Positions 1 through 50,567 are shown, numbered from the stretch's first letter. The stretch is DNA of 64,000 nt from a virus (IMGVR_UViG_3300020180_000015:1-64000), one strand, 5' to 3'. Program-made: numbers and translations. Notes: generated from the letters alone by a model not told the origin.

Positions 1-72
1 GCCCATGACTTGGATAATGCAACTAGGGGTGATATTAAACCCTGATAGATTAATCGCCTGTTTTTTAGCCAT
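1..72 (-). CDS. 5' end of hypothetical protein (runs off window)
   Basis: ATG at 72 (MAKKQAINL...) with GGGAG RBS, directly downstream of the consensus promoter at 116-144. Confidence 0.6.
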   Translation of the reverse strand, partial: MAKKQAINLSGFNITPSCIIQVMG

Positions 73-115
73 GTTCGTTTTCTCCCGTATCGTCTTGCAC
101 TCAATCAATATACAC

Positions 116-144
116 ATTATATCCGAAATCGGACATATTGTCAA
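116..144 (-). promoter_or_regulatory. Consensus sigma70 early promoter
   Basis: Minus strand TTGACA-N17-TATAAT, perfect consensus; spacer contains TCCGA-N2-TCGGA palindrome. Confidence 0.9.
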
Positions 145-150
145 GTAGAC

Positions 151-178
151 AAAATAAAGCCCCTATTTTCTAGGGTCT
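151..178 (-). terminator. Intrinsic terminator upstream of early promoter
   Basis: Minus strand hairpin AGACCCTA-gaaaa-TAGGGGCT followed by TTATTTT; equivalents at ~2267-2294 and ~5551-5579. Confidence 0.65.
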
Positions 179-266
179 GAGGGAAGGCACTTTCTAGCGT
201 CCGCGTGGGGTGACGCCTCACCCCCGCCCCCTCTCCAAATGGAGAGAGGGGAGAGCGTGGATATAA

Positions 267-886
267 TCATAGTCGCGGGAACGGACAGTTAGGAATGACT
301 TCCCGCACGATCTCCGCGATCTCTTGTCGTGCCTCTTCCGACTCCGCCGCCCGCGCCGCCACCACCGACATCACCGCTGCCGTCACCGGACATAACCAAT
401 CCGCCGCTACCTCCCCCGACAATGCCGACTCAACCGCCCGCGATACCGCACGCGCCGCCCATAGCTCCGCCGACCACCCCGCCACAGCCCGCGATACCGC
501 CAGTGCCGCCGCAGTCGAAGCCGCCGCAGTCGAAGCCGCCGCAGTCGAAGCCGCCGCCATCACTCCGACCGCCTCCAACTCCTTTAGGGTGGCTTTTCCC
601 TTTGCCCATTTCTCGGTTGTAACAACCGCTGCTCGACTGTCCTCACTCAGTAAACGCCACACTACACCTCCGGCGATCTTTCGGATGATGAGGCACGATA
701 TAAGGGCTAATTGTTCCGGTGTGAGCGCACCGATAAGTCGTGCTACCCACAACATTTGTGGCCCGTCTGTCCACCCGTTCCATGCCTTCTGGGGGGTTCA
801 AAATTGCCCTCTCGCAACCACTTGGTTTCTGCCGATGATGTTCCGTACATTTCGATGAACTTCTCAATCCAACCCATGTTATTCAT
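267..886 (-). pseudogene. Ala-rich Imm5-like family paralog 1, frameshifted at G6 tract 791-796
   Basis: N-terminus from ATG 886 (MNNMGWIEKFIEMYGTSSAETKWLR) matches paralog 6880-7605; a 1-nt loss shifts frame before AWNGWTDGPQMLWVA (ORF 267-755). Confidence 0.75.
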
Positions 887-938
887 TTCTTTCTGCCCCT
901 TACGGGGCTGATTGTTGACGAGATGCTCCCGTCACGCT
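887..938 (-). repeat. GNRA-hairpin leader element copy 1 (type B1)
   Basis: AGCGTGACGGG..CGTCAAC-AATCAGCCCC-GTAA-GGGGCAG-AAAGAA-ATG; further copies at 1582-1635, 3304-3355, 4501-4552, 5119-5171, 5783-5810, 6321-6374, 6819-6871, 7612-7664. Confidence 0.9.
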
Positions 939-945
939 AATTACA

Positions 946-1572
946 CTACAAATTGTAAGCGGTTGGGGAAAGCGGTTTCGCCTTTCGTTGATAAATTACG
1001 TCCTCGCTATATACCCCGTCCCAATTGGGCGGGTCTCCCTGATACACCTCGTCCCATTCGCGATACATGAGATCGTAGAACTCGTCATTGGCAGTGCAAC
1101 CGCCTTTACCTTCTCCCACGTAAAAAATGAAATCGCCCGTGAAAGACCTAACGGCTTGATAAGCCGCGTCGCTTTCGTTGGGTATCCAGCACATAAATAA
1201 ATCACGATCTGGAAATTCCCTTATTTTGCGCTCATCCCCTTCTTTCACTTCTGCCCAATTCCCACCAGCGTAATGATTCTGATACGGTGCGATGTCGAAC
1301 GCTAGAACATCAACCCCGAACTGGGATAGATAATGCTTCCAGTATCCTGTTCCCGCACCGATCTCGATGAGGGACACAGAACGCTTGGCGATCTCGACGG
1401 CAAATTCATGCGTTGGGATACTCCACGCGAAGCGGCGAACTAATGCGAGTCTGTCTTCATAAACGCTCACCTCTTCGTCGCTGCGGATTAGCGCCGCGCC
1501 GTACTCATTTGCAATCTCGCCAAAAGGTGGGACTACGATTCGGTCAAGGTATCTACAGTGCGGACGACTCAT
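946..1572 (-). CDS. Class I SAM-dependent methyltransferase-like protein
   Basis: Motif I LIEIGAGTGYW, LFMCWIP, YVGEGKGGCTA; preceded by leader element. Confidence 0.7.
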   Translation of the reverse strand: MSRPHCRYLDRIVVPPFGEIANEYGAALIRSDEEVSVYEDRLALVRRFAWSIPTHEFAVEIAKRSVSLIEIGAGTGYWKHYLSQFGVDVLAFDIAPYQNHYAGGNWAEVKEGDERKIREFPDRDLFMCWIPNESDAAYQAVRSFTGDFIFYVGEGKGGCTANDEFYDLMYREWDEVYQGDPPNWDGVYSEDVIYQRKAKPLSPTAYNL

Positions 1573-1632
1573 GTTATTCAGTTCTTTCTGCCCCTTTCGG
1601 GGCTAATTGTTGGCGTCTGGCGGACGCTTCGC

Positions 1633-1839
1633 TTATTTCCCCCAGTTGGGGTTGCCGACTTTGCGCGGCGGCGTGTCAATCCACGCCTGAAAGTCGTCCC
1701 GCGTAACTGCCCACGCAGTTCCTATTTTAGTTCCGCGTAGCCGTCCTCTCTCAATCGCACGCTTAACTTGATTCGCTGAGACAGCGCGCCCCATCGAACC
1801 AGACAGCGCGGCAGCGGTCTTTACACTGAGTATTTCCAT
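1633..1839 (-). CDS. Excisionase-like HTH_17 DNA-binding protein
   Basis: LSVKTAA...VKRAIERGRLRGTKIGTAWAVTRDDF pattern typical of Xis/HTH_17. Confidence 0.75.
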   Translation of the reverse strand: MEILSVKTAAALSGSMGRAVSANQVKRAIERGRLRGTKIGTAWAVTRDDFQAWIDTPPRKVGNPNWGK

Positions 1840-1911
1840 TTGTCCCCTAGTGTCCCTGTCTCCTCAGTGGCGGGTGGGTATCCGCCAGACCCCCGAAGGG
1901 GTTTCGACTAT

Positions 1912-2193
1912 CTAGTCAATGCTGCTTTGCAGACACACCCAGTTATCGTCAATGCTGTTTTTCAGCAGTTGGATGTACGCCGCATAAATCGGGTTTTCAA
2001 ACTTGGTTTCAAACCGAGTAAAGCCGCGCCGTGCTGCGCCCATATACGCGCTTCTTAACGATGTCGGGATCACGCACGCTTTGAACGTTACGTAATTACC
2101 GATCTGTAAGTTGGATGCTCCCAACTTACGTAACATCCCGGCGTCCTGTCCCACACCAAACCCAAATTCCGTAGTCCGTTCAATTTCGCTCAT
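1912..2193 (-). CDS. Hypothetical protein
   Basis: ORF immediately downstream of promoter 2232-2260 with GGAG RBS. Confidence 0.65.
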   Translation of the reverse strand: MSEIERTTEFGFGVGQDAGMLRKLGASNLQIGNYVTFKACVIPTSLRSAYMGAARRGFTRFETKFENPIYAAYIQLLKNSIDDNWVCLQSSID

Positions 2194-2231
2194 TTACTCG
2201 TCTCCTAGTCTTGCACTCAATCAATATACAC

Positions 2232-2260
2232 ATTATATCCGACATCGGACATATTGTCAA
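2232..2260 (-). promoter_or_regulatory. Consensus sigma70 early promoter (copy 2)
   Basis: TTGACA-N17-TATAAT with TCCGA-tg-TCGGA in spacer. Confidence 0.9.
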
Positions 2261-2439
2261 GTAGACAAAATAAAGCCCCTATTTTCTAGGGGCTGAGGGA
2301 AGGCGCTTTCTACGATCCTACGTAGGGTGACGCCTCACCCCCGACCCCTCTCCCAGAAGCAGGAGAGGGGAGACAAGCGGCTTACGAACGGCTGCCCCGG
2401 CGCGGCTGACTAATCAACGTAAGGGTAGGGCGATAGAGT

Positions 2440-3303
2440 TTATTCGCTGTCGGCGAAGTTGCGACGCAACTTCGCTAGTGCGGCAGCACTCAAGAGCGCC
2501 TCGTCGTCCGGCTCGTCATCGTCGTATACGATAGGCGCGAGAATCTCTTCTTGCGCCGGGCGTGGCGTGTAGGCGTCCTCGACGTACTTTTGAATATTGG
2601 CGGCGATTTCCGCCAGATCGAATGGTGTGATATCAATGTACCATTCCGCCAACTGTGTGCTGTCTGGCGAAGCTGCTTGCGCCGAACGCCACATCATGGC
2701 GACTTCGCCTAAAGTATCCACACCGTCGTCATCGGTGTGAAACACTTGCCACCCAGACGATTGTTTATCGAGACAATATCGTCCTTCCGGTAGGTCATAT
2801 GCCGGGTTTGCGGGAACTCCGAACCATTCCCCGTCCTGTTGAATGATACGCAGGATAAAATTCGCCACGCCACTCATTGATTCCCGCCACAGAAATACTT
2901 CTTTGTCAGGAGATACGAGCAGCACCTCCCAGTGATCCCCAAAGTCGTCTGCCCAATATTTGGGCGGTAAGACGGGAATATTTTGTTGAATTTTCCCGTA
3001 CCACTCACCTTCTGGCATGGCGACCAGAAAGACTTTCGGTGAGACTCCGTCTGTTGAAACTCGAACGGCGTTTTCCCAATTGCCGCTGTTCTCGATCACC
3101 ACAAGGCGGAGCGTCCCGTTTTTACTCTGCACGATTTCATTTACCGTGCTGTGTAGCTCATATGCGACAAAAGAGTCGCGTGTCCCTCCGATAATGCGGG
3201 CAATCGCTCCCGCCTCGCTTATCCGGTGATGCAGCGCATCTGCGGCTGCGTGATTGCCGTTCGCTGTCATTTCGATAAGATCAATTGTGTTCATTTTATT
3301 CAT
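2440..3303 (-). CDS. Hypothetical protein
   Basis: 287-aa ORF starting right after leader element 3304-3355. Confidence 0.8.
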   Translation of the reverse strand: MNKMNTIDLIEMTANGNHAAADALHHRISEAGAIARIIGGTRDSFVAYELHSTVNEIVQSKNGTLRLVVIENSGNWENAVRVSTDGVSPKVFLVAMPEGEWYGKIQQNIPVLPPKYWADDFGDHWEVLLVSPDKEVFLWRESMSGVANFILRIIQQDGEWFGVPANPAYDLPEGRYCLDKQSSGWQVFHTDDDGVDTLGEVAMMWRSAQAASPDSTQLAEWYIDITPFDLAEIAANIQKYVEDAYTPRPAQEEILAPIVYDDDEPDDEALLSAAALAKLRRNFADSE

Positions 3304-3352
3304 TCCTTCTGCCCCAATGGGGCTGATTGTTGGCGACTAGCGGACGCCTCGC

Positions 3353-3778
3353 TTACGAACGGCTGCCCCGGCGCGGATTAGCCATCCACGCCTGAAAATC
3401 GCCTACGCGGATGGCGTACCGCCCCTTCGCGTCTTTTTTGGCGGGCAACTTTCCCGCATTGATTTCATCCTGGATAAAACGCCGAGTCACCCCCGCACGC
3501 TCGGCGGCGTCGGTGACGCGGATTGTCTCATCGTCAAGAAGGACGCGCCCGCTTGCCCCCCGCGATGTTTGCCAGAGCCGGAAGGCTTTTGCGGCGACTT
3601 CCGGCTGCCCGTCCGCCAGCGCGCCGAGCGCCATGCGCGCCAAACTCCACTGTCCATTCGCGGGGTAAATCACGTCCTTTGACTCTGTCCATGCCCGCGC
3701 TGCTTCGAGCAGCGCCTCCTCTGCGGGCATTTTATCCGAGAGGGCGATGAACAGCGCCCGTGCCTCTTTAATTTCCAT
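3353..3778 (-). CDS. Protein with C-terminal excisionase-like HTH_17 domain
   Basis: IRVTDAAERAGVTRRFIQDEINAGKLPAKK...YAIRVGDFQAW; start placed at ATG 3778 by RBS. Confidence 0.75.
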   Translation of the reverse strand: MEIKEARALFIALSDKMPAEEALLEAARAWTESKDVIYPANGQWSLARMALGALADGQPEVAAKAFRLWQTSRGASGRVLLDDETIRVTDAAERAGVTRRFIQDEINAGKLPAKKDAKGRYAIRVGDFQAWMANPRRGSRS

Positions 3779-3860
3779 GTTGTCTCTTTCTGAGCAGTTT
3801 AACGCCATGCTCAGGGCGATATTGGATAGTTCTTCTAATGCGCCCGTCACCGCTGAGTAT

Positions 3861-4493
3861 TCAGCGGGAGTCCCCAGTGGAGAACGGACAGACAGGCATG
3901 ACTTCCCGCACGATCTCCGCGATCTCCCGTCGTGCGGCTTCCGCCATCGCCATCGCCTCCACCGCCGACACCGACACCGGCGCCCACATCGCCTCCACCG
4001 CCGACATCACCGACGCCGCCACCGCCACCGCCTCCGCCGCCTCCTCTGCCAAGGGCGTCTCATCCACCGCCACCAGCGCCGATACCGCTCGCGCGGCCCA
4101 CACTTTCGACGCCCTTGATTGCCAGTCCTCATCCGCGCTCGCGTCCACCGCCGATGCGCACCACGCCGCTGCAACCATCGCAGCTTGTACTTCCGCTAGG
4201 CTGGCGTTGCCAGCCAACCATTTCTCGGTTGCAACAACCGCTGCCCGGCTGTCCTCGCTCAGTAAACGCCAGACTCCGCTGATTTTTCGGACTATGAGAC
4301 ATGAGATAAGGGCTGATTGTTCCGGTGTGAGCGCGTCGAGTTTGGACAAGAGCCACAGCATTTGCTCTCCGTCTTGCCACTCAGTCCATGCATTCTGCGG
4401 TGATACGAACCCACCTGCCCGCAGCAAGGTTGCTGCTTTCGGGCAGACATCGTATTCTTTGATAAACTCTTCGATCCAATTCATGTCCAACAT
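3861..4493 (-). CDS. Ala-rich Imm5-like family paralog 2
   Basis: Shares MLWLL / ALISCLIVR / EKWLAG / EIAEIVREV.P.CPF blocks with 267-886, 5808-6314 and 6880-7605. Confidence 0.75.
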   Translation of the reverse strand: MLDMNWIEEFIKEYDVCPKAATLLRAGGFVSPQNAWTEWQDGEQMLWLLSKLDALTPEQSALISCLIVRKISGVWRLLSEDSRAAVVATEKWLAGNASLAEVQAAMVAAAWCASAVDASADEDWQSRASKVWAARAVSALVAVDETPLAEEAAEAVAVAASVMSAVEAMWAPVSVSAVEAMAMAEAARREIAEIVREVMPVCPFSTGDSR

Positions 4494-4549
4494 TGTTCAT
4501 TTCTTTCTGCCCCAATGGGGCTGATTTTGGCGACTGGCGGACGAAATGC

Positions 4550-5110
4550 TTACGAGCGCACATGGCGCTCGACGCGGGGTTCATTCGGCTTACGTAACAC
4601 AACATACTGTGGCGTCTCCGCCACGACCTCGTAGCCTGCCGCCAACAGCGCCGCAATTTTGCCACGTGCCGCCCCGTTGCTCACACGGGTGCGCGTTACC
4701 CATGTGTCCCCCGACACTCCGGGGTACATGACGACCCCGTCCTTATACCACCGCGTCCCACCGGGGGACGTGTGACGCAAGTCTTTCTCCGGGGGTGTCG
4801 CCCCGACGTATCTCTCTTCTTTCGACGGGAGATACGTATCTACAAATATAGATACGGTTTCCCCCTTTGCCAGCCGCCGCTTGACCTCATCGTCCGCCCA
4901 TGCGCGGACGGACGATTTTTTCACAACCATCGGGATCGCGCACTGAGCGCGTATCGACCCCGCCCCACGCGGGAAAGGTCTGACATGCCCGCCCACCGTT
5001 TCGGCGGCAGTGCCATAATCCTCATCGATTATGTCTCCCGCTAAAGCAGTATCCTCCTGGATCGCCCATACAAGGCGATCCAGTTCTGTTGCATGACTCT
5101 TGTAACCCAT
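4550..5110 (-). CDS. Hypothetical protein
   Basis: ORF flanked by two leader elements; start ATG 5110. Confidence 0.7.
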   Translation of the reverse strand: MGYKSHATELDRLVWAIQEDTALAGDIIDEDYGTAAETVGGHVRPFPRGAGSIRAQCAIPMVVKKSSVRAWADDEVKRRLAKGETVSIFVDTYLPSKEERYVGATPPEKDLRHTSPGGTRWYKDGVVMYPGVSGDTWVTRTRVSNGAARGKIAALLAAGYEVVAETPQYVVLRKPNEPRVERHVRS

Positions 5111-5261
5111 GTTGTTCGTTCCCTCTGCCCCTCGCGGGGCTGATTTTGGCGTCTGGCGGACGCCTCGCTTATTGCGATACAATGGGGGGCGGCTGAGAAG
5201 ACACCGCCCCAGTTTCCACCCCTCTCCTAAGCCGAAAACTTAGGAGAGGGCTTTCTGGGAT

Positions 5262-5480
5262 TTAGGAGCGGCGCTCGAAATTGCTACGCGCCGCGCTTTC
5301 CAGGCTGAGATTTGCCGACTTCACCCACTCCGGGCTCCCGTCAGCCGCTTCGTAGGGGATGAAGCTATCCCCCTTGATGCGACTAGGGGCAAACGCCCTG
5401 ATGAAAAATTCACCGGGCGCAGATTGCGCCACAATCATCCGATTACCATCTGTCCATTTATTGCGGTATTTACTTTTCAT
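5262..5480 (-). CDS. Hypothetical protein
   Basis: GAGGAG RBS, downstream of promoter 5514-5543. Confidence 0.65.
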   Translation of the reverse strand: MKSKYRNKWTDGNRMIVAQSAPGEFFIRAFAPSRIKGDSFIPYEAADGSPEWVKSANLSLESAARSNFERRS

Positions 5481-5513
5481 CTCAAACTCCTCAATCACTC
5501 AATCAATAACACC

Positions 5514-5543
5514 ATTATACTCCTAAAAACTTGTGAGTGTCAA
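5514..5543 (-). promoter_or_regulatory. Sigma70 early promoter (copy 3)
   Basis: TTGACA-N18-TATAAT on minus strand. Confidence 0.85.
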
Positions 5544-5563
5544 GTAGGCAAAATAAAGCCCCC

Positions 5564-5776
5564 CTAGAAAAAGGGGGCTGAGGGAATGCACTTTCTAGCG
5601 GCGGCGTGGGCGGCAAGCTGCTCGACGGCTTTGGCATATTCAGCGATGGCAAGCTCGCTTCTATCTAGCGCCGCCGCAGACCGTGTGTCCTTGTATGCAT
5701 AAAACGCATCCACGGCGGCTTCCAACAATTCGTCGGCTTTGTCCCTTAGTTCTTCAATTGCTGTCATGTCTAACAT
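5564..5776 (-). CDS. Small helical hypothetical protein
   Basis: Follows leader element 5783-5810; 3' end overlaps terminator module. Confidence 0.6.
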   Translation of the reverse strand: MLDMTAIEELRDKADELLEAAVDAFYAYKDTRSAAALDRSELAIAEYAKAVEQLAAHAAARKCIPSAPFF

Positions 5777-5807
5777 AACGTGTTTCCTTCTGCCCTTTCG
5801 GGGCTGA

Positions 5808-6314
5808 TTACTGGCGGACAGACATGACTTCCCGGACAATTCCTGCGATCTCTTGTTTTGCAGCCTTCGCCGCAGCGAGTGCCACTACCGCCGCCGCCTG
5901 TGGCGATGCAAACGCCAGCAGCGCCGCCGTGTTCGCCCGCACTACTGCCATCATCGCTACTTCCACCGCTACTGGCGATCCCGACAACACCGAGTCAACC
6001 GCCCGCGATACCGCCCGTGCTGCCCACAACGCCGCCGATGACTCTGACATCTCCTTACTGCCCGCTGTTTCCCGCCGCTGCACCAACAACAACAACGCTG
6101 CCGCCTCCGCCGCCTCCGCCAGCACTCCGACCGCCTCCAACTCCTTTAGGCTGGCTTTTCCGGCTATCCATTCCTCAATTGTTTCAATAGCTGATTTGCT
6201 AGGCTTGCTCAGAAAACGCCATGCCACACACCCGTCGATTTCTCGGATGACTCGACACGAGATAAGGGCTAATTGTTCCGCTGTGAGCGCGTTGGAATTC
6301 TCAAAAGCGTTCAT
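5808..6314 (-). CDS. Ala-rich Imm5-like family paralog 3 (N-terminally shortened)
   Basis: ALTAEQLALISCRVIR...EEWIAGKASLKELEAVGV...EIAGIVREV; start after leader element 6321-6374. Confidence 0.7.
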   Translation of the reverse strand: MNAFENSNALTAEQLALISCRVIREIDGCVAWRFLSKPSKSAIETIEEWIAGKASLKELEAVGVLAEAAEAAALLLLVQRRETAGSKEMSESSAALWAARAVSRAVDSVLSGSPVAVEVAMMAVVRANTAALLAFASPQAAAVVALAAAKAAKQEIAGIVREVMSVRQ

Positions 6315-6402
6315 GCTGTGTTTCCTTCTGCCCCTTACGGGGCTGATTGTTGACGGGAATGCGCCCGTCACGCTTTGGCTCAATAGAGGGTGGGGCGGTG
6401 AA

Positions 6403-6810
6403 TTATTCGGGGTCGGCGAACAGTTTGCGATTGCGAACTTTCGCAAGCATTCTCGCGCCCGCCAGCGCAATCGTGAGCGCCTCTTCGCGTTCGGCGGCAG
6501 ACTTATTGTACGCTGCCATTGCCCGATCAGATTCGCGCATCCATTGACCCAACGCGGCGCTGGAGCGTGCATTGAGTTCGAAGAGCGCCGCCTCGAATAG
6601 CGGAGCGAGGAGAACAAACGCCGCCGCAATCGCGTCGCCGAGTGATTTAGCAATCTGCTCAGTCTCATCGCCGTATGTATCCGCCGCCGCTTTACCAGCA
6701 ATGACGGCGCTCCCACGCAGGGACGCAACATCGAGAATCATCTCGTCGATCTCAATTGCCAAGTCTTCGAGGACACGTGCATTCGTGGTCATCTTCTCAA
6801 AAGTGTTCAT
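6403..6810 (-). CDS. Helical hypothetical protein
   Basis: ORF between leader elements. Confidence 0.7.
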   Translation of the reverse strand: MNTFEKMTTNARVLEDLAIEIDEMILDVASLRGSAVIAGKAAADTYGDETEQIAKSLGDAIAAAFVLLAPLFEAALFELNARSSAALGQWMRESDRAMAAYNKSAAEREEALTIALAGARMLAKVRNRKLFADPE

Positions 6811-6879
6811 TTTATTCGTTCCTTCTGCCCCTCACGGGGCTGATTGTTGACGGTGATGCGCCCGTCACGCTGATTCGTG

Positions 6880-7605
6880 CTACTTAACGGGGAACGGACA
6901 TTCTGAAAATTCCTGACGGATAATATCAGCGATCTCTTGCCGTGCGGCTGCCCCCGCCGCCCCCACTTCTACTGCCGATCCCGCGACCCAAATTACAGAG
7001 GCAACGTGGGTCGCCGATTTCGCCGTCCGTGCCGCGCAACCTGCCGCCCACGCTGTTGCTGACAGTGCCGCAGACTTCGCTGCTGCCTCCAGCGCCGCTG
7101 TGTCAGCAGCCTTCCACGCTTCCGCACGCGCCTGCTCCTCTGACGGAGACGTGGGCGTATCCGTCGTCCACGCTTTCTCTACCAACAGATCCAACGCCGC
7201 CGCCGCCACTTCCGACGCCGCTTCCCCCACCGCCGCCGCTACTTCCAGAGCCGCCGCCACTGCCACTGCTCCTGCCGCTGCTGCTTGTACTTCCGATAGG
7301 CTGGCGTTGCCAGCCAGCCAAGACTCTGCTGTCGAGACGGCTTCCCGTAAAATGGGGTCGGCAAGTAAACTCCAAACGGCGCTGCCGCCGCTGACTTGCC
7401 GAACAATACGGCAAGCAACCGTGACTGCCGCATAGTTGCTCAACGATCCGGTTTGTCCCAACAGGCATAACATCCAGTCCCCGCGCCCGCACGCATCCCA
7501 TGCTTCTTGGGGAGTTTCAAAATTACCCGCACGCAACCACTTGGTTTCTGCCGATGATGTTCCGTACATTTCGATGAACTTTTCGACCCAATTCATGTTC
7601 AACAT
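6880..7605 (-). CDS. Ala-rich Imm5-like family paralog 4
   Basis: AWDACGRGDWMLCLL, ESWLAGNASLSEV, EIADIIRQEFSECPF. Confidence 0.75.
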   Translation of the reverse strand: MLNMNWVEKFIEMYGTSSAETKWLRAGNFETPQEAWDACGRGDWMLCLLGQTGSLSNYAAVTVACRIVRQVSGGSAVWSLLADPILREAVSTAESWLAGNASLSEVQAAAAGAVAVAAALEVAAAVGEAASEVAAAALDLLVEKAWTTDTPTSPSEEQARAEAWKAADTAALEAAAKSAALSATAWAAGCAARTAKSATHVASVIWVAGSAVEVGAAGAAARQEIADIIRQEFSECPFPVK

Positions 7606-7689
7606 TATTCATTTCTTTCTGCCCCTTTCGGGGCTACATACTGACGGGGATGCGCCCGTTACGCTTTGGCTCTATTTTGAAAACGGTTT

Positions 7690-8361
7690 TCAAGACGAGA
7701 TTTCATGTCCCGCGTCCGCTGCGGGCTGTTGGGAGTACGATGCTTCGCTCAATGTGGTGTACTCATATGACCCGTCGCGTCGCTGATAACTGTGGGTCAA
7801 TGAGTGGGTATTAGGAATCTCGCCAAACCACTTATCCCCGAACTCATGTACGTAGTATTCACCCTCGTATCCCGGCACGCCGATACGCCGTTGGCATCGG
7901 CACTTGCTGCAAACCTGATCCTTGTGCCAAGCGCCGATTTCACCTGTATGAATGTGCTGTTCGAATTCACCCGTAGTGATCCAGTCGTGTTCGCAGCCGG
8001 GGACGAACAACAGCCCCCTGTGATAGATACGAACTACCCCCTTGTTCTCGCCGTTCTCGAAACGATGAGTCATGTATATTGATTTTTGATCAATTGACTG
8101 TTCTTTGGCGCAAACTAGCGCCTCAGCCTCGTTGTCGAACACTCCTGTAGCACTCAGGATGTTATCAAACACGTTTGTCACGACAAACACTTGTTCTGGG
8201 TGTTGCAGATGTTCTGCGCCCAAGTACAAGTAATGGAAGCTCTTTGTGCTGTAGGAAAAGCACGCGGCGAAAACATCATAAACTTCGGTCACGTAGAAAT
8301 AATGACCATCTTTCCGATACTCCGCTGTGAGTTCAACAACATCACCCTTATTGATGCTCAT
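7690..8361 (-). CDS. Hypothetical protein (possible Zn-binding CEHDW...CSKC)
   Basis: 223-aa ORF with GGAG RBS. Confidence 0.7.
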   Translation of the reverse strand: MSINKGDVVELTAEYRKDGHYFYVTEVYDVFAACFSYSTKSFHYLYLGAEHLQHPEQVFVVTNVFDNILSATGVFDNEAEALVCAKEQSIDQKSIYMTHRFENGENKGVVRIYHRGLLFVPGCEHDWITTGEFEQHIHTGEIGAWHKDQVCSKCRCQRRIGVPGYEGEYYVHEFGDKWFGEIPNTHSLTHSYQRRDGSYEYTTLSEASYSQQPAADAGHEISS

Positions 8362-8394
8362 TTTGCGCTCCGTAACTCTATGATTTCCCCGCCT

Positions 8395-8658
8395 TTAGCC
8401 GCTGTAGAGTGTGACGCGATAGACTGTAATATTGGGGCCGCATATTTCGCCATCCATCATGACCTGATAAACCCCGAAGCGCCCGTTTTGATAGTCCTTT
8501 AGGAGTCTCCCGACATACGACATATTCCGCCGGGATTCCTCTGGATCGGGCGTATGTTCCGTTGACGACACTATAACGCCGTCGGTGACAATCACCTCGT
8601 AGTATTTGTTGGCGAACTTGCCGTTGATGCTTGCATCTATAAAATCTTCACGCTTCAT
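8395..8658 (-). CDS. Hypothetical protein
   Basis: AAGGAG RBS, in operon order. Confidence 0.65.
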   Translation of the reverse strand: MKREDFIDASINGKFANKYYEVIVTDGVIVSSTEHTPDPEESRRNMSYVGRLLKDYQNGRFGVYQVMMDGEICGPNITVYRVTLYSG

Positions 8659-8694
8659 GGTTTTCTCCTTATCCGCTGTAGAGTGTCACAGCGG

Positions 8695-9039
8695 CTACTC
8701 GTCTTGGGCGGGTTGCTCAACCGCTTGGCGGCGCATATATCGGCGATACAGACGCTTGCCGCGTCGCTTCCTTAGGTCAAAAATGATGTAGGCATCGCGG
8801 ATAAAGTCGATGCCATCCATCACAGTCGGTACACGTTCGCCGAAGGATGTGCGGATAAAGTCGGCATTTTTCTCGGCATGGAGTGCCAGATCGATCCACG
8901 ACTCACCTTGTGCTTCCGGCGGCATCAGCGTCGCGTTCTTTCGCTCATGCTCAAGTACCCGTGCAATGTGCCGATGCCATGCCCCTTTCGTGGCAAAGTA
9001 GCATCGGATCGCTTGTTTATCTTCGTTATTCATCCCCAA
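8695..9039 (-). CDS. Hypothetical protein
   Basis: GGAGG RBS, overlaps upstream gene. Confidence 0.6.
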   Translation of the reverse strand: MGMNNEDKQAIRCYFATKGAWHRHIARVLEHERKNATLMPPEAQGESWIDLALHAEKNADFIRTSFGERVPTVMDGIDFIRDAYIIFDLRKRRGKRLYRRYMRRQAVEQPAQDE

Positions 9040-9596
9040 CCTCCCCCATTTCTGACCGAACGCGGATGTGAGCGCTCGACGGCGTATACGTCGTTCAACA
9101 CGAAACAGTGCAGGGTCGGCGAGTCGGTCGCTTCAAACAGCGATCCCGCGAAATGATCCATGTACCACTCCCCGTACTCTTTGCCCCGCTTCCGCAAAAC
9201 CCAGAGCGCACCGCCGACCTCGATCACGTCATACGACTGCAATCCCCGTCCCATCACGGTCGCGCACTGCCGGATGCCGGTCATGTGCCAGCGAGAGTCT
9301 TTCGCGCCGAGGTAGCGCGGCGCCCACCGGATCGTGATCGGCAGTGCCTCGCGCAGTTCGCGCCGACCTATTTCGCCGTTCCAGTCGATCTTGCCGATCA
9401 ATGCTTCAATGCCGCTTAACCCGAAGCTATTCCGGATGCCGACCAACTCCTCGACGGGGGTCTGTACGTGAAGCTGATACCGCTCCAAGTGGCTGCTGTC
9501 CCGGCGCGTGATCGCAGTCAACATGCCGCTGACTAACGTGCCGCTGGGTCTGTCTAAATCGATGTTTTGGTCTTTCGTGATAATTGCCGCATCCAT
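9030..9596 (-). CDS. Hypothetical protein
   Basis: Start ATG 9596 with GGAG RBS, downstream of promoter ~9628-9655. Confidence 0.65.
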   Translation of the reverse strand: MDAAIITKDQNIDLDRPSGTLVSGMLTAITRRDSSHLERYQLHVQTPVEELVGIRNSFGLSGIEALIGKIDWNGEIGRRELREALPITIRWAPRYLGAKDSRWHMTGIRQCATVMGRGLQSYDVIEVGGALWVLRKRGKEYGEWYMDHFAGSLFEATDSPTLHCFVLNDVYAVERSHPRSVRNGGGWG

Positions 9597-9627
9597 GCGA
9601 ACTGCTCCCTTGCCCAATATACTCATA

Positions 9628-9655
9628 ATTTTAACACTAAAGAGTATGAAGTCAA
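9628..9655 (-). promoter_or_regulatory. Sigma70 promoter with overlapping 25-bp operator
   Basis: TTGACT-N16-TAAAAT with TGn; contains CATACTCTTT-N5-TAAAATTATG. Confidence 0.7.
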
Positions 9656-9668
9656 GCAACTGCCCATC

Positions 9669-11618
9669 TCACTCGATATGGGCTTGGATTTGTTCGGATA
9701 CAAGAAACCGCATCGTTTCGGAGTCGATTTTGGTACGCACCTTGGGGAAATCTAGCACCAGTGAGTCTTTAAGCGCACCGCCACGCACAAAAACGACGAT
9801 TTGCTCATCTCCCGGCATTTGTTCTAATCGTGCGATCACCCTTCGCAATCGATCCCGATCCTGTTCGGGGTATCCTGTGCGCTCCATGTCCAGCACCCAC
9901 TGCCGCTGCGACGCCGGCTTTGCGAGTTCGGCGATGAGCCGCCGCATTGCCGTGCTGTGCGCTATGATGGCGGACGCTTGCCCTTTTGTGAGGTTCTTGG
10001 CATTAGTGACGCCGAGTCGCCCTAAGCGCGTAATTTGCGCCTCTGACACCTTCGAGTCGCGCCAACGTGCATCCTTCGAGATCGGGCTGCCGCCGGATCG
10101 CCGTGCAGCCGCGTCGCCGCGCTGGACGAGAGTTGCAGCAGCGGCGTCTCGATCCATAAACACGACGGGCTTTTTGGGGCTATCCGGCACGCGATACAGG
10201 CGGTAATACTCGTCGGATTCCGGCGGCAGGATCACAACTGCTCCATCTCCGAATGCCAACATGCAAGACATCGATCCGTCATCTGCCGAGTACCATGCAG
10301 CAAAAGCATCGGCGAACAGCGGGTTGTAAGTCGAGGTGACGAGTTCCCCGCCTGTGTACTCCTCGTTCTGTTTCTTATCACCGAAGCCGCCGCCAGCGCC
10401 GCGAGGTCGGGGAGCGCCGCACAGCGAACACTTGTCGAGGAAGGCGTAGTATTCCGCCATGCACTTGGGGCAGGTGATCATCTTCCCCGCCAGCGTGCCG
10501 AAGTCGAGCATCTTGGTATCCTGCACCGCCATGTCGATCACGAGACACTGCGTCTTGCCGGGGAACAGCCGAACACCGCGACCGATGATCTGCGTGAGCA
10601 GAGTCCGGCTGCGCGTCGGGCGACCTAGAAAGATCACATCGGTGAGCGGTGCATCGAAACCCTCGGTAAGAACAGCAAAGTTTGACACGACCCGCAAGTC
10701 GCCATTGGAATACCGTTTCAAGATCGCGGCACGTTCCGGCTTCGGGGTCTCGCCGTCGATGTGGGCTGCCGCTATCCCCACCCCATTCAAGCCATCGGCC
10801 AACTGTCGACTCATAGTGATGGTCGGCATAAACGCTAAGGTCGAGCGTTCCGGCGAGACGTGATCGTGAAATGCTTTCAAGCACAGTTCTAGCCAGTTCT
10901 CTGCCTCAAGCGCCGAGACGAGTTTTGACTGGTCGTAATCGCCGCGCTGTGTTTTGATACTGTTGACATCGACCCGCGTTGCTACCCGAATGCGTGTGAT
11001 CGGCGCTAAGTGTCCTGCCATCACCGCATCGGCGATCATTAGTTCGTAGCAGATGGATGACCACAGTGACTCCAACGCATGTCGGTCACCGCGCTTCGGC
11101 GTGGCTGATAATCCAAAGCGTTTTAAACTAGGGTTTGCTGTTTCGAGAGTCTTTACGATGTCCCCGTAAGTATTTCCGCCGTAACTGTGATGCATCTCGT
11201 CTATAACGATAACATCAAACGCGCCGTGTTTCAGCAGTTTCTCCAGTCGCCGGCGATGCAGACTCTGGCGCGTGGCGACGACGATCCGTGCGTCACCGGC
11301 ATCCAGATCGCCCATCACCAGTCCGATTCCGGGCTTCATAAAACCAAAGTAATCGTCGAGCGCACCGCCAAATTGATTGGCGATGCGCTCGTATAACTGG
11401 TAGATGATCTCCGCCGTGTGCGCAATAACCAATGCCCGCTGCTGGTGCGGATTGACCATCTCGACCAGCGCCTGCGCGATGACCGTCGTCTTTCCTAAGC
11501 CCGTCGCCATCGCACAAATCGGTTTCTCCCCCTTGTCACAGGCGGCGCGGATCGCTGCGACCGCATCCTGTTGATACGGTCGCAGTACCTGCGGGATAGA
11601 CTGGCGTTCGGCGGACAC
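9669..11618 (-). CDS. SF2 DEAD/DEAH-box helicase (Irc3/RadD-like) with Zn ribbon and DnaE-CTD-like tail
   Basis: LRPYQ, ATGLGKT, DEMHH, SATP, LTEGFD, QIIGRGVR; CPKC..CSLC. Confidence 0.9.
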   Translation of the reverse strand: MSAERQSIPQVLRPYQQDAVAAIRAACDKGEKPICAMATGLGKTTVIAQALVEMVNPHQQRALVIAHTAEIIYQLYERIANQFGGALDDYFGFMKPGIGLVMGDLDAGDARIVVATRQSLHRRRLEKLLKHGAFDVIVIDEMHHSYGGNTYGDIVKTLETANPSLKRFGLSATPKRGDRHALESLWSSICYELMIADAVMAGHLAPITRIRVATRVDVNSIKTQRGDYDQSKLVSALEAENWLELCLKAFHDHVSPERSTLAFMPTITMSRQLADGLNGVGIAAAHIDGETPKPERAAILKRYSNGDLRVVSNFAVLTEGFDAPLTDVIFLGRPTRSRTLLTQIIGRGVRLFPGKTQCLVIDMAVQDTKMLDFGTLAGKMITCPKCMAEYYAFLDKCSLCGAPRPRGAGGGFGDKKQNEEYTGGELVTSTYNPLFADAFAAWYSADDGSMSCMLAFGDGAVVILPPESDEYYRLYRVPDSPKKPVVFMDRDAAAATLVQRGDAAARRSGGSPISKDARWRDSKVSEAQITRLGRLGVTNAKNLTKGQASAIIAHSTAMRRLIAELAKPASQRQWVLDMERTGYPEQDRDRLRRVIARLEQMPGDEQIVVFVRGGALKDSLVLDFPKVRTKIDSETMRFLVSEQIQAHIE

Positions 11619-11620
11619 GG

Positions 11621-12751
11621 TTAGCGGTTTACCGCCATCGGCATAATGACGGCAGTGTAATCGTTCTGTCCTTCCTGTCGAACGACCAGCGGATGCGCCG
11701 CGCCGTTCGTCTCAAGAATGACCCGCTCCGTGCCGAGTACCTCAATGGCATCCATCAGGTACGCCGATCCGTATTTGGCGTACAGTTCCTCTCCTTCGAC
11801 TGCCGCATCCATCGTGCTTTCGCAGTCGCCGCGTTCGGCGGACACACCACGCACCAGTATATCGCCCGGATGGGTTGGGTTGGCTGGGGGGGATACGGTG
11901 ATGAGTACTGCACCGTTGGAATCCCGCCCGAAGATCGCCGCACGCTTCGTAACCGCTAGCAGGTCGGCGACATAAACTGTCGCCCGTGTTGACCACGATG
12001 TCGGGAAAATCGCGTCAAGGTCGGGGAATTTGCCGGACAAAAGTTGGGAGCGGATCAGCGTCGATCCGAAGGAGAACGATGCATAATCCCGCGTCAGATG
12101 AATGGTCACCTCCGCGTCAAAGCACAGCCGTGCAGTTTGCGCGAGTGCGGGTCCCGGAATGATAAAGTCGTCGCCGTCTTTGAGGACGTGTTCAGTTCCT
12201 GCCCCAAAGACGCGAATGGCGGCGCGGTATCCGTCCGCCGAAAGCCAACGAAGCTGACCATTTTTCATCTGGATACAAAGTCCGGTCAGGATGGGGCGCG
12301 ACTCCTCGCGGGAAACCGAATACATCACCTGATCGACAGCTTGTTTGAAGTCCTTCCCGCTCATCTTGAGCGACCATTCATCTGTTGCGTCGAGCAGCGG
12401 CGGAAACTCTGATGCGGCGATCCCTTTCAGATTCGATGTACTCGCGCCACAGCGCAGGTTCACAGTTTGCGTTGGGGCGTCTAAGGTCAGATCGATACGA
12501 TCTGGAGGGAAATTGTTTATCAGTTCCTGCAGCGTTTTCGCTGGCAGGGTGATCGCGCCGGGACGATCTACCTTCGCGCCGATGTAGGTGGTGATGCTCA
12601 TCTCGATAGTGGTAGCGGCGATCTTCAAACGCGCATCCTCTGTTTGAATGAGGATGTTCGCCAAGATGGGCAGCGTGGGACGGTTCAAAACTGCCTTGAT
12701 GACGGTGGTAATGGCGCGTTGCAGTTGATCTTGTAGGACTGATACTCGCAT
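11621..12751 (-). CDS. dnaN: DNA polymerase III beta sliding clamp
   Basis: 376 aa; RPTLPILANILI, SREESRPILTG, ADGYR, GKFPD, C-terminal VIMPM. Confidence 0.95.
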   Translation of the reverse strand: MRVSVLQDQLQRAITTVIKAVLNRPTLPILANILIQTEDARLKIAATTIEMSITTYIGAKVDRPGAITLPAKTLQELINNFPPDRIDLTLDAPTQTVNLRCGASTSNLKGIAASEFPPLLDATDEWSLKMSGKDFKQAVDQVMYSVSREESRPILTGLCIQMKNGQLRWLSADGYRAAIRVFGAGTEHVLKDGDDFIIPGPALAQTARLCFDAEVTIHLTRDYASFSFGSTLIRSQLLSGKFPDLDAIFPTSWSTRATVYVADLLAVTKRAAIFGRDSNGAVLITVSPPANPTHPGDILVRGVSAERGDCESTMDAAVEGEELYAKYGSAYLMDAIEVLGTERVILETNGAAHPLVVRQEGQNDYTAVIMPMAVNR

Positions 12752-50520: not shown

Positions 50521-50555
50521 CCCGCATGGAAACTTCCATGCGGGTTTTTTGTTTT
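50521..50555 (+). terminator. Intrinsic terminator between late promoter and capsid gene
   Basis: CCCGCATGGAA-ac-TTCCATGCGGG-TTTTTTGTTTT. Confidence 0.75.
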
Positions 50556-50567
50556 AGTCGAGGTGTC

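What the first reader, a model, noticed from the sequence alone, without database searches (positions are those of the whole stretch)
887..7664. Early genes built as cassettes joined by 9 copies of a GNRA-hairpin leader
Seen: nine ~50-nt elements sit between the end of one gene and the start of the next (887, 1582, 3304, 4501, 5119, 5783, 6321, 6819, 7612). On the transcribed strand each has CAGCCCC-loop-GGGGCAG followed by an A/G-rich RBS. The loop varies (GTAA, GAAA, GCGA, GTGA) yet stays GNRA in 7 of 9 copies; the other two have ATT, which argues for selection on RNA structure. Two upstream-hairpin subtypes occur (GTGACGGG..CCGTCAAC and GGCGTC..GACGCC). Known: the stem resembles lambda boxB, and repeated regulatory stem-loop cassettes drive modular gene shuffling in T4-type phages. 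Inference: a plug-in platform for host-takeover genes, acting as an antitermination, processing or translation signal and as a recombination homology.
Basis: partly seen in the sequence, partly recalled or inferred. Interest (0 to 1): 0.72.

Follow-up and report, generated by a model that had tools for sequence, protein, structure and literature searches.

The report
Two-hairpin RNA leader joining phage cassettes
An uncultured 83.5-kb phage from microbial mats puts the same ~65-base folded RNA leader (a small hairpin, an A-rich gap, a very tight GNRA-capped hairpin and a ribosome-binding site) in front of nine accessory early genes, and related phages swap genes at these leaders; this is a clean new example of a known kind of phage regulatory repeat, and its function is untested.

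Summary
There are nine copies, all on the minus (gene) strand, all within window 872-7675, and none elsewhere in the 83.5-kb genome.

Each copy reads: (UAA)GCG, hairpin 1, A-rich spacer, hairpin 2 (GCCCC-loop-GGGGC), AGARRGAA (Shine-Dalgarno), 7-9 nt, ATG.

With 25 further distinct copies from related mat phages (34 in all):
- The hairpin-2 stem never varies.
- Every 4-nt loop is GNRA (five variants). The rest are A-N-U.
- Hairpin 1 has three stem versions linked by compensatory changes.

This fits selection on an RNA structure in the sense strand.

The elements lie inside, or at the head of, operons driven by three perfect sigma70 promoters. They contain no promoter and no U-tract terminator. 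They have no Rfam match, no boxA, and the genome has no integrase.

Gene content between elements differs among relatives. 16 of 44 homology-block ends fall in the elements, and a variant without one cassette is present in two other runs.

Best reading (about 0.5): a cis-acting leader that insulates translation and stabilises the message, and that also serves as a recombination joint.

It is a new variant of a known kind (PeSL, SAS/ESAS, T7 processing sites). This scan has noted similar hairpin-plus-RBS leaders in other phages. The antitermination (boxB) reading is not supported.

The parts
872..950 (-). Leader copy c887. Hairpin 1 type A (with a G.U pair), loop GUAA, SD AGAAAGAA. Stands before Imm5-like paralog 267-886.
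   Evidence: CM R1 86.7 bits; fold
1567..1645 (-). Leader copy c1582. Hairpin 1 type B, loop GAAA. Lies between the stop of HTH gene 1633-1839 (the UAA in UAAGCG) and the start of methyltransferase-like gene 946-1572.
   Evidence: CM 87 bits; Pfam/PHROG
3289..3365 (-). Leader copy c3304. Hairpin 1 type B with a U.U mismatch, loop AUU. Stands before orphan gene 2440-3303. This leader plus its gene is absent in variants from runs X3 and X4.
   Evidence: CM 79.3 bits; joint 2379>3351; 25-nt direct repeat 2381-2405 / 3352-3376
4486..4562 (-). Leader copy c4501. Hairpin 1 decayed, loop AUU. Stands before Imm5-like paralog 3861-4493.
   Evidence: CM 72.1 bits; no hairpin 1 in the fold
5105..5181 (-). 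Leader copy c5119. Hairpin 1 type B, loop GCGA, SD AGAGGGAA. Stands before gene 4550-5110.
   Evidence: CM 79.9 bits; fold -26.6 kcal/mol
5769..5846 (-). Leader copy c5783, truncated. Hairpin 1 is replaced by the 3' end of paralog 5808-6314, whose stop lies in the spacer. Hairpin 2 has a 4-bp stem, loop GAAA. Stands before gene 5564-5776.
   Evidence: CM 55.8 bits; sequence
6307..6384 (-). Leader copy c6321. Hairpin 1 type A, loop GUAA. Stands before Imm5-like paralog 5808-6314. Homology with the 98.9%-identical relative L090 resumes 10 nt before hairpin 2.
   Evidence: CM 76.3 bits; blastn
6805..6883 (-). Leader copy c6819. Hairpin 1 type A, loop GUGA. Stands before gene 6403-6810.
   Evidence: CM 80 bits; fold z -2.9
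7598..7675 (-). Leader copy c7612. Hairpin 1 type A, spacer AGUAUGU, loop GAAA. Stands before Imm5-like paralog 6880-7605.
   Evidence: CM 72.7 bits
92..196 (-). Terminator plus perfect sigma70 promoter module (TTGACA-17-TATAAT, 144-116). PeSL-like. Heads the last operon of the contig end.
   Evidence: 97% identical repeat of 2208-2312
2208..2312 (-). Terminator (2294-2274, U-tract) plus perfect sigma70 promoter (2260-2232). Heads the operon that holds c1582 and c887.
5495..5600 (-). Terminator (5579-5557) plus perfect sigma70 promoter (5543-5514). Heads the operon that holds c5119, c4501 and c3304.
3838..3850 (-). Relic of a leader. The 5' half of hairpin 1 type A (GUGACGGGCGCAU) survives between paralog 3861-4493 and HTH gene 3353-3778.

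Best explanation
The element is a phage-specific, cis-acting RNA leader of about 65 nt. It is placed before accessory early genes, either between cistrons or directly after the promoter of operons transcribed by host RNA polymerase.

Its core is a 5-bp all-G/C hairpin capped by a GNRA tetraloop (or an A-N-U triloop). This hairpin abuts a purine-rich Shine-Dalgarno tract (AGARRGAA) that lies 7-9 nt before the ATG. An upstream 4-6-bp hairpin and an A-rich single-stranded spacer complete it.

Most likely it works in the mRNA as a standard translation-start and stability module:
- Hairpin 2 keeps the SD unpaired and independent of whatever gene lies upstream.
- If the transcript is cut in the spacer, hairpin 2 caps the new 5' end and hairpin 1 caps the 3' end of the upstream message.

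Because the same sequence recurs every 0.5-1.7 kb, it is also the homology at which gene cassettes are gained, lost and exchanged by ordinary homologous recombination.

Shown: the anatomy, the conservation pattern, the position inside operons and the mosaic joints.
Inferred: the effect on translation and stability, any cleavage, and the recombination mechanism.
For: Copy number and orientation:
- Nine copies, sense strand only, against 0.2-0.5 expected by chance.

Conservation in 34 distinct copies from about 20 related contigs:
- The hairpin-2 stem is invariant.
- All 18 four-nt loops are GNRA, in 5 variants. The reverse complements never occur.
- In unrelated matches to the same stem pattern, only 6 of 58 four-nt loops are GNRA.
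- The outer pair of hairpin 2 is U.G in 10 copies.
- In hairpin 1, 3 of 6 pairs show changes on both sides (9, 12 and 11 sequences), and 89% of cells are paired. Slid controls give 36-48% over the whole structure, against 94% observed.
- Three stem versions coexist in one contig, L054.

Translation context:
- The SD is predicted unpaired in all nine folds.
- SD-to-ATG spacing is 7-9 nt.

Transcription context:
- Three perfect sigma70 promoters, each behind a U-tract terminator, frame the operons.
- No promoter or terminator sits in the leaders on the sense strand.
- In relatives the same leader directly follows the promoter.

Recombination joints:
- 16 of 44 distinct homology-block ends fall in the 9% of sequence that the leaders occupy (binomial p about 7e-7, a crude test).
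- L090 is 98.9% identical over 3.3 kb, then differs by a 2.3-kb block whose right edge lies in leader c6321.
- A variant without the cassette is seen in two other runs.

Distribution:
- The leader is not a host signal. Among 185,579 species genomes, the only full-length match (78.9 bits) is a 2.4-kb phage-like contig.
Against: - There is no transcript, end-mapping or protein data. No RNA run holds the phage.
- The total sequence invariance of the hairpin-2 stem is more than stability alone requires. It hints at a specific partner or at gene conversion.
- Hairpin 1 is lost or decayed in 2 of 9 copies, so it cannot be essential.
- Its covariation would also fit a palindromic DNA site.
- Hairpin 1 shows A.C rather than G.U at its eroded base.
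- Homology ends at intergenic sites are expected in any mosaic phage. Others fall at the promoter modules.
- One Logan contig joins genes 1633-1839 and 946-1572 with 7 nt in place of the leader (only 30 nt on the short side). So the leader is not needed at that junction.
Confidence: 0.5

Rival explanations
1. The leader is the operator of a trans-acting RNA-binding protein, from the phage or the host. The protein binds hairpin 2 and/or hairpin 1 next to the SD and switches translation of all accessory early genes off (or on) together. T4 RegA does this, and HTH anti-CRISPR-associated proteins (Aca2, Aca1) do it on hairpins in 5' UTRs.
For: - The hairpin-2 stem and its flanks are invariant in 34 copies, while hairpin 1 drifts.
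- The 5' part of the hairpin-1 loop (CGC) and the upstream GCG are conserved across all three stem types.
- Two HTH_17 proteins are encoded in the same operons, directly upstream of leaders.
- The identical 23-nt hairpin-2/SD stands before a 28%-identical Imm5-like gene in an unrelated contig.
- HTH proteins binding structured 5'-UTR RNA are documented (PMC13551039).
Against: - No candidate RNA-binding protein was identified.
- HTH_17 is not an Aca family.
- Loops vary freely within GNRA and A-N-U, so the loop is not read base by base.
- Hairpin 2 does not cover the SD, unlike the Aca2 operators.
- The P1/P2 promoter spacers carry a different palindrome (TCCGA..TCGGA), which is a more natural target for the HTH proteins.
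Confidence: 0.2
2. The leader is mainly an endonucleolytic processing site. A host RNase (E/G, Y or J type) or a phage RNase cuts the A-rich spacer between the hairpins, turning each operon into stable monocistronic messages. The RNase III sites of the T7 early region and the processing sites of SP82 early RNA work this way.
For: - The layout is two stable hairpins flanking a 6-8-nt A/U-rich single strand.
- Hairpin-1 type tends to go with the upstream gene end. Homology blocks begin at -20 to +1 of hairpin 2.
- The same layout is used in engineered tunable intergenic regions (own knowledge: Pfleger et al. 2006).
Against: - The hairpins are too short for RNase III, which needs about 20 bp.
- The spacer sequence is not conserved as a cleavage motif. 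There are five variants, including AGUAUGU.
- The leader also occurs as a primary 5' UTR straight after promoters, where no cutting is needed.
- No ribozyme or known processing motif was found by Rfam in the window or in 10 related loci.
Confidence: 0.15
3. The repeats act on DNA. They would be palindromic binding or recombination sites for a protein (stoperator-like or attC-like), or simply scars of repeated duplication. In this reading the RNA folds are incidental.
For: - Hairpin 1 is a 6-5-6 inverted repeat of operator size. Its half-sites change together, as the half-sites of a dimer's operator would.
- The ESAS repeats of cluster K phages were read as DNA sites (PMC3203893).
- Four of the nine downstream genes are paralogs, so some copies did arise by duplication.
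- Cassette gain and loss is seen.
Against: - No tyrosine integrase in the genome.
- Three hairpin-1 versions coexist in one phage, which would need three proteins.
- GNRA loops and U.G pairs are strand-specific, which a double-stranded site does not explain.
- Variation is concentrated in the loops and in compensated stem positions. It is not spread evenly, as decay of duplicates would be.
- Five of the nine copies precede unrelated genes.
Confidence: 0.08
4. Transcription-level signal. Either a boxB-like antitermination site on the sense strand, or a weak terminator for antisense transcripts on the plus strand.
For: - Hairpin 2 resembles boxB in size and in its GNRA-type loop.
- On the plus strand, 7 copies pass a loose terminator scan: a 5-bp stem followed by UGAUUGUU.
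Against: - No boxA-like sequence in 1-12000.
- There are 2-4 copies per operon, each fixed to an RBS. One nut site per operon would suffice.
- No internal U-tract terminators need overriding.
- The plus-strand tails are U-poor in five copies (UACAUACU), and no plus-strand genes or promoters read into the region.
Confidence: 0.05

Closest known systems
PeSLs (promoter-early stem-loops) of T4-type phages (PMC2839356, PMC4122927)
   Same: - Repeated ~100-bp intergenic cassettes in a hyperplastic early region rich in orphan genes.
- They end in the SD and start codon of the next gene.
- They contain G/C stem-loops.
- They mark the points of insertion, deletion and replacement between close relatives.
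   Different: - A PeSL is defined by a strong sigma70 promoter plus a terminating stem-loop. The nine leaders have neither and lie inside operons.
- In this phage the promoter+terminator role is held by three separate repeated modules.
- Mini-circles were not tested.
SAS / ESAS (start-associated sequences) of cluster K mycobacteriophages (PMC3203893, PMC12699233)
   Same: - An asymmetric conserved motif covers the RBS a few nt before the ATG of many non-structural genes of unrelated families.
- It occurs in one orientation only.
- About half the copies have an inverted repeat just upstream.
- Function is still untested.
   Different: - The sequence is unrelated (GGGATAGGAGCCC there).
- Departures in the ESAS arms do not support RNA pairing, and the authors favoured DNA sites. 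Here hairpin 1 covaries and hairpin 2 carries GNRA loops.
- The host lineage is different.
RNase III processing sites of the T7/T3 early region and processing sites of SP82 early RNA (own knowledge)
   Same: Repeated, related stem-loop signals between successive early genes of host-transcribed operons. After cutting, they leave hairpins at the message ends.
   Different: Those are single long irregular hairpins of about 20 bp or more. Here there are two 5-6-bp hairpins with a single-stranded spacer. No cleavage has been shown.
lambda nut site (boxA + boxB)
   Same: A 5-bp stem with a GNRA-type loop in an early transcript.
   Different: - boxB has a pentaloop and is paired with boxA, one site per operon, away from any RBS.
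- Here there is no boxA, there are many copies, and each is fused to an SD.
Aca1/Aca2 RNA motifs in acr-aca 5' UTRs (PMC13551039)
   Same: A structured hairpin next to the RBS of accessory (possibly anti-defence) phage genes, with HTH genes in the same operons.
   Different: - The HTH proteins here are HTH_17, not Aca families.
- The hairpin does not include the SD.
- There is no matching inverted repeat in the promoters.
- Binding was not tested.
Engineered intergenic insulators (tunable intergenic regions, 5' hairpin stabilisers; own knowledge)
   Same: Hairpin, single-stranded (RNase E-prone) spacer, hairpin, then RBS. These designs are used to decouple and tune cistrons.
   Different: Those are synthetic designs. 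The comparison is by analogy only.

Membership tests
PeSL (T4-type promoter-early stem-loop) | Strong sigma70-like promoter inside each repeat | tested here: not met
   The promoter scan finds 12/12 promoters only at 144-116, 2260-2232 and 5543-5514. None lies in the nine leaders.
PeSL (T4-type promoter-early stem-loop) | Stem-loop that terminates or attenuates upstream transcription | tested here: not met
   On the sense strand, the hairpins are followed by AACAAU and AGAAGGAA, not by a U-tract. The true U-tract terminators lie elsewhere. Activity itself was not assayed.
PeSL (T4-type promoter-early stem-loop) | Flanks variable orphan genes and marks recombination joints between relatives | tested here: met
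   Gene maps differ between relatives. 16 of 44 block ends fall in leaders. A variant lacking one cassette exists.
SAS/ESAS of cluster K mycobacteriophages | 13-bp motif GGGATAGGAGCCC, 3-8 nt before the start codon | tested here: not met
   The motif here is GGGGCAGARRGAA, 7-9 nt before the ATG. The placement is analogous but the sequence is different.
SAS/ESAS of cluster K mycobacteriophages | Upstream 17-bp imperfect inverted repeat whose departures do not support RNA pairing | tested here: not met
   Hairpin 1 has 6-bp arms with compensatory changes at 3 pairs.
lambda-type nut site | boxA element next to the boxB hairpin | tested here: not met
   No CGCTCTT or GCTCTTTA on the sense strand in 1-12000.
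lambda-type nut site | One site per operon, promoter-proximal, acting with an N-type protein | tested here: not met
   There are 2-4 copies per operon, each abutting an SD. An N-like protein was not searched for.
RNase III processing site (T7 R sites) | About 20 bp of irregular double-stranded stem | tested here: not met
   The folds give two separate stems of 5-8 bp.
RNase III processing site (T7 R sites) | Cleavage in vivo or in vitro | not testable with these tools
   No RNA run holds the phage.
Integron attC cassette site | IntI-type tyrosine recombinase in the element | tested here: not met
   PF00589 has no match in the 83.5-kb genome. The control rings in 14 of 14 genomes.
Any Rfam family | Match to a curated covariance model | tested here: not met
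   No match at E<=1 in window 1-10000. No match at gathering score in 10 related loci.
Aca-type RNA operator | Cognate Aca HTH regulator that binds the 5'-UTR hairpin | not tested
   Only HTH_17 proteins were found. No binding data exist.

The most novel reading that the evidence does not exclude
The hairpin-2/SD core (AGCCCC, stable loop, GGGGCAGARRGAA, start) may be a portable RNA leader read by a specific partner. That partner could be the ribosome platform or an unknown phage or host protein.

Such a leader would be kept letter for letter across otherwise unrelated phage lineages. The identical 23 nt precede a 28%-identical Imm5-like gene in a distant contig, and UUCG-capped versions occur in low-GC marine phage contigs.

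If so, it would be an undescribed class of cis-regulatory RNA that gives accessory (possibly anti-defence) genes a shared on/off switch.
Probability: 0.15. Interest if true: 0.7.

Novelty: new variant of a known kind. Interest (0 to 1): 0.45.

Why it matters
Phage accessory-gene regions evolve by swapping small cassettes. How each newly arrived gene gets reliable expression is poorly understood outside T4-like and mycobacterial phages.

This leader has several useful properties:
- It is compact.
- Its conservation pattern points to RNA structure.
- It is not tied to a promoter.
- Its 34 natural variants already serve as a ready-made mutational series: loop swaps, three hairpin-1 stems, and copies with hairpin 1 missing.

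If the leader does insulate translation or stabilise message segments, it would be a natural counterpart of engineered intergenic insulators. It would also be a handle for finding accessory genes in uncultured phages that are probably of Chloroflexota.

If it binds a regulator instead, it would define a phage-wide translational regulon.

Tried and rejected
- **Cultured relatives.** blastn of 1-8000 against 50,697 phage records gave only a low-complexity hit.
- **IMG/VR pattern scans.** Only two related contigs turned up, with 2 copies each.
- **Species genomes.** Of 27 single matches, only one is a full-length leader, on a 2.4-kb contig binned in an Anaerolineae MAG. So the leader is not a host-borne repeat.
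- **Rfam.** Nothing.
- **RNA evidence.** No RNA holder listed. The laid runs are Logan contigs only, so no ends or strands could be read.
- **Integron idea.** No PF00589 match.
- **N4-type hairpin promoter idea.** No RNA-polymerase family turned up among the large ORFs scanned with PHROGs or Pfam, though several of those ORFs matched no family. Ordinary sigma70 promoters are present.
- **boxA.** None.
- **Chloroflexota prophage.** The covariance model finds nothing in the Chloroflexota genome whose TerL is 46% identical.
- **Genome-wide upstream hairpins.** A scan of 5' regions for hairpins abutting the SD was not informative.
- **Possible pseudoknot.** The conserved GCG upstream of hairpin 1 could pair with the conserved CGC in its loop. 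Both are invariant, so this could not be tested.
- **Weak Logan joints.** The joints 6831>7630 (hairpin 2 to hairpin 2; only 20 nt on the short side) and 1572>1636 (30 nt on the short side) are too weak to count as proof of leader-to-leader deletion.

Full report
**What the window is.** The window is the first 64 kb of an 83,551-bp IMG/VR virus record that CheckV estimates to be 97% complete. It is a tailed phage.
- Terminase lies at 38893-40407, portal at 45218-48187 and major head protein at 50526-52916.
- A minus-strand replication arm holds a helicase, a DnaB-like helicase, a clamp and several DNA methyltransferases.
- No cultured phage is similar at the DNA level.
- The finding lies at the left end, where every gene is on the minus strand.

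- GGGGCAGARRGAA with up to one mismatch occurs nine times on the minus strand between 887 and 7625, against 0.19 expected.
- The hairpin pattern gives 11 matches against 0.51 expected.
- A covariance model built from the copies finds exactly nine in the whole genome, at 56-87 bits, and nothing else.
- Read on the gene strand, each copy is: (UAA)GCG, hairpin 1 (up to 6 bp, 5-6-nt loop beginning CGC), an A-rich spacer (AACAAUC and variants), hairpin 2 (GCCCC-loop-GGGGC, plus one outer C-G or U.G pair across an A.A mismatch), AGARRGAA, 7-9 nt, ATG.
- Four copies have hairpin 1 of the GACGGG/CCCGUC type and four of the GGCGUC/GACGCC type.
- Copy c5783 has lost hairpin 1 to a deletion that fused it to the end of the upstream gene.
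- Copy c4501 has a decayed hairpin 1.
- RNA folding predicts both hairpins in six of the nine copies and hairpin 2 in all nine, and leaves the purine tract unpaired in all nine.

**Transcription context.**
- Three perfect TTGACA-17/18-TATAAT promoters lie on the same strand, at 144-116, 2260-2232 and 5543-5514. Each sits just behind a canonical hairpin-plus-U-tract terminator.
- These terminator+promoter modules are themselves repeats. 92-196 and 2208-2312 are 97% identical.
- The nine leaders hold no promoter-like site and no U-tract on the sense strand.
- They are therefore internal to host-polymerase operons, 2-4 per operon.
- There is no Rfam match, no boxA-like sequence and no tyrosine recombinase in the genome.
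- No RNA-polymerase family turned up among the large ORFs scanned, though several of them matched no family.

**Relatives.**
- Pattern scans plus the covariance model found full-length copies (59-89 bits) in two IMG/VR contigs and about 18 metagenome contigs.
- Nearly all come from one series of microbial-mat samples, plus an ENA microbial-mat assembly.
- One copy lies on a 2.4-kb contig binned in an Anaerolineae MAG.
- Together with the window this gives 42 copies, 34 of them distinct.

**Conservation pattern in the 34 distinct copies.**
- The five inner pairs of hairpin 2 are the same in essentially every copy.
- All 18 four-nt loops are GNRA, in five versions (GAAA, GUAA, GUGA, GCGA, GCAA).
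- Fifteen of the other 16 are A-N-U (AUU, AAU, AGU); the last is the truncated c5783, aligned as GAA.
- The reverse complements of the GNRA loops never occur.
- As a control, in unrelated matches to the same stem+SD pattern elsewhere, only 6 of 58 four-nt loops are GNRA.
- The outer pair is U.G in 10 copies.
- Hairpin 1 comes in three stem versions (GACGGG/CCCGUC, GGCGUC/GACGCC, GGCGAG/CUCGCC). Three of its six pairs change on both sides, in 9, 12 and 11 sequences.
- 89% of hairpin-1 cells are paired. Over the whole structure, 94% are paired against 36-48% when the partner is slid by 1-3 columns. No shuffle of 500 reaches the observed covariation score.
- The three versions coexist in a single contig, L054.

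I read this as selection on a sense-strand RNA structure. That reading is firm for hairpin 2 and likely for hairpin 1. There are three caveats:
- The half-sites of a dimer's DNA operator would also change together.
- The eroded base of hairpin 1 shows A.C rather than G.U.
- The alignment was fitted to the model.

**Cassettes.** Gene maps of the related contigs show different genes and orders between leaders. Examples, with F numbers being my own protein clusters:
- `<P>[E]F20[E]F1 F2` in L009, L011 and L076;
- `<P>F65[E]F66[E]F67[E]F1 F2` in L098 and L117;
- `<P>[E]F14 F2` in L110 and L123;
- `<P>[E]F15[E]F14` in L086;
- nine leaders with four paralogs of one family in the window.

So the leader can stand directly behind a promoter as well as between genes.

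- The same downstream gene is found with different hairpin-1 types and different hairpin-2 loops. The same upstream gene end tends to keep its hairpin-1 type. This mix of small segments suggests repeated exchange inside the leader.
- Of 44 distinct ends of blastn homology blocks between relatives and the window (contig ends excluded), 16 lie within -70 to +50 of a hairpin-2 start. That is 9% of the sequence (binomial p about 7e-7, a crude test without correction for intergenic position or relatedness). Most others lie at the promoter/terminator modules or at gene boundaries.
- L090 is 98.9% identical to the window over 3.3 kb. It then lacks about 2.3 kb (window about 8680-6345), and homology resumes 10 nt before hairpin 2 of c6321. 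The two sequences are identical from the 3' arm of hairpin 2 onward, and their loops differ (GUAA against AUU).
- Contigs from two other runs carry the HTH gene joined straight to the operon end. They lack leader c3304 and gene 2440-3303 (joint 2379>3351, depths 64 and 12). The missing block is flanked in the window by an exact 25-nt direct repeat, 2381-2405 and 3352-3376.
- Two further joints are suggestive but rest on 20-30 nt and are not counted: one between hairpin 2 of c6819 and of c7612, and one replacing c1582 by 7 nt.

**The genes behind the leaders.**
- Four are paralogs (267-886, 3861-4493, 5808-6314, 6880-7605) of an alanine-rich family. The language-model atlas places it with Imm5-like phage proteins (score 0.93). 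Pfam gives only a sub-threshold hit (E 0.03).
- The others are a methyltransferase-like protein (phrog_19090, E 6.5e-31) and orphans.
- Two HTH_17 proteins end right at leaders.
- 'Host takeover' remains an inference.

**Mechanism.** My best reading (about 0.5) is a cis-acting leader that makes expression of any inserted gene predictable.
- The ultra-stable hairpin 2 abuts the SD. It keeps the SD single-stranded and shielded from upstream sequence.
- If the A-rich spacer is cut, hairpin 2 would cap the 5' end of the downstream message and hairpin 1 the 3' end of the upstream one. This rests on established knowledge that 5' stem-loops protect against RNase E and 3' hairpins against exonucleases (own knowledge). 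Engineered intergenic regions use the same layout.
- Recombination at the leaders follows simply from about 65 nt of repeated homology, as argued for PeSLs (PMC2839356).

Rivals:
- A trans-acting RNA-binding regulator (0.2). It is favoured by the letter-perfect stem and by the conserved GCG and CGC. HTH proteins that bind 5'-UTR hairpins are a precedent (PMC13551039).
- A processing site as the main role (0.15).
- A DNA-level site or a mere duplication scar (0.08).
- Antitermination or antisense termination (0.05).

None of these can be settled without RNA or protein data. No RNA run holds this phage.

**Wider occurrence.**
- The identical 23-nt hairpin-2/SD (loop GCGA) stands twice in an unrelated contig family (L044, L082, L083). 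One copy is before an Imm5_like gene (PF21805, 32.7 bits) that is only 28% identical to window gene 6880-7605.
- A UUCG-capped version precedes several genes in low-GC contigs (L007, L032, L034, L067, L077, L102).
- My search fixed the stem sequence, so this does not show that the stem is special. It does show that a tight tetraloop hairpin glued to the SD is a recurring design.
- Earlier notes of this scan describe similar hairpin-plus-RBS leaders in other uncultured phages. Those notes are leads, not evidence.

**Comparison with known systems.**
- The leaders work like PeSLs and SAS/ESAS in placement and in marking shuffling joints. They fail the defining features of each: no promoter or terminator, an unrelated motif, and covarying arms.
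- They are too short for RNase III sites.
- They lack boxA and the copy-number logic of nut sites.
- I therefore class them as a new variant of a known kind.

**Host.**
- A second hairpin at the operon ends, CCCCUCUCC-loop-GGAGAGGGG (2345-2369, 5219-5250), is highly repeated in Chloroflexota genomes. It occurs in 163 of 401 sampled genomes, with up to 271 copies, and 30 in the Anaerolineae MAG.
- In a Pseudomonadota sample it occurs in 17 of 81 genomes, with at most 10 copies. It is absent from five genomes of other phyla.
- The terminase has a 46%-identical match in a Chloroflexota genome.
- The host is therefore probably a member of Chloroflexota, at moderate confidence.
- The tally includes two genomes flagged unpublished (G150, G232). 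G349 is not used.

Noticed in passing
window 2345-2369, 5219-5250 (variant near 226-252): The hairpin CCCCTCTCC-loop-GGAGAGGGG at operon ends is a high-copy repeat of many Chloroflexota genomes. It occurs in 163 of 401 sampled genomes, with up to 271 copies, against 17 of 81 Pseudomonadota with at most 10. Read depth spikes there in the mat runs. This points to a Chloroflexota host and to borrowed host-type signals.
   Followed up: partly
window 92-196, 2208-2312, 5495-5600: Three repeated modules, each a U-tract terminator followed by a perfect sigma70 promoter (PeSL-like). The spacers of the first two promoters hold a palindrome, TCCGA-N2/3-TCGGA, which could be an operator for the HTH_17 proteins encoded nearby.
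   Followed up: partly
window 267-886 (C-run near 783-790): The first Imm5-like paralog is split into two ORFs (743-886 and 267-755). The cause is a 1-nt deletion relative to paralog 6880-7605. It may be a pseudogene, an assembly error in a homopolymer, or a frameshift site.
   Followed up: partly
window 267-886, 3861-4493, 5808-6314, 6880-7605: Four paralogs of an alanine-rich family. They share conserved N-terminal (MxxMNW..) and C-terminal (EIAxIVREV..CPF) ends and have variable Ala-rich repeats in the middle. They are distant relatives of Imm5-like phage proteins (atlas score 0.93; Pfam PF21805 sub-threshold).
   Followed up: partly
window 2381-2405 and 3352-3376: An exact 25-nt direct repeat, the 3' end of the HTH gene, flanks the cassette made of leader c3304 and gene 2440-3303. 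Contigs without the cassette exist in two other mat runs.
   Followed up: yes
L044:1119-1142 and 1568-1591; L082; L083; L007, L032, L034, L067, L077, L102: Unrelated contigs carry the identical hairpin-2/SD with a GCGA or UUCG loop in front of genes. One of these genes is an Imm5_like gene that is 28% identical to the window's paralog. The upstream hairpin in L044 and L082 differs by one compensated pair.
   Followed up: partly
window 26255-27328: An actin-like segregation protein (ALP_N + MreB-like_C) in a genome without an integrase. The phage may be maintained as a plasmid-like prophage.
   Followed up: no
G000 83332-83400 (beyond the window): The last minus-strand gene of the contig has a similar small leader, CCCC-AAAU-GGGG followed by GAAAAGA and the start codon, behind two other hairpins. 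The covariance model does not detect it.
   Followed up: no
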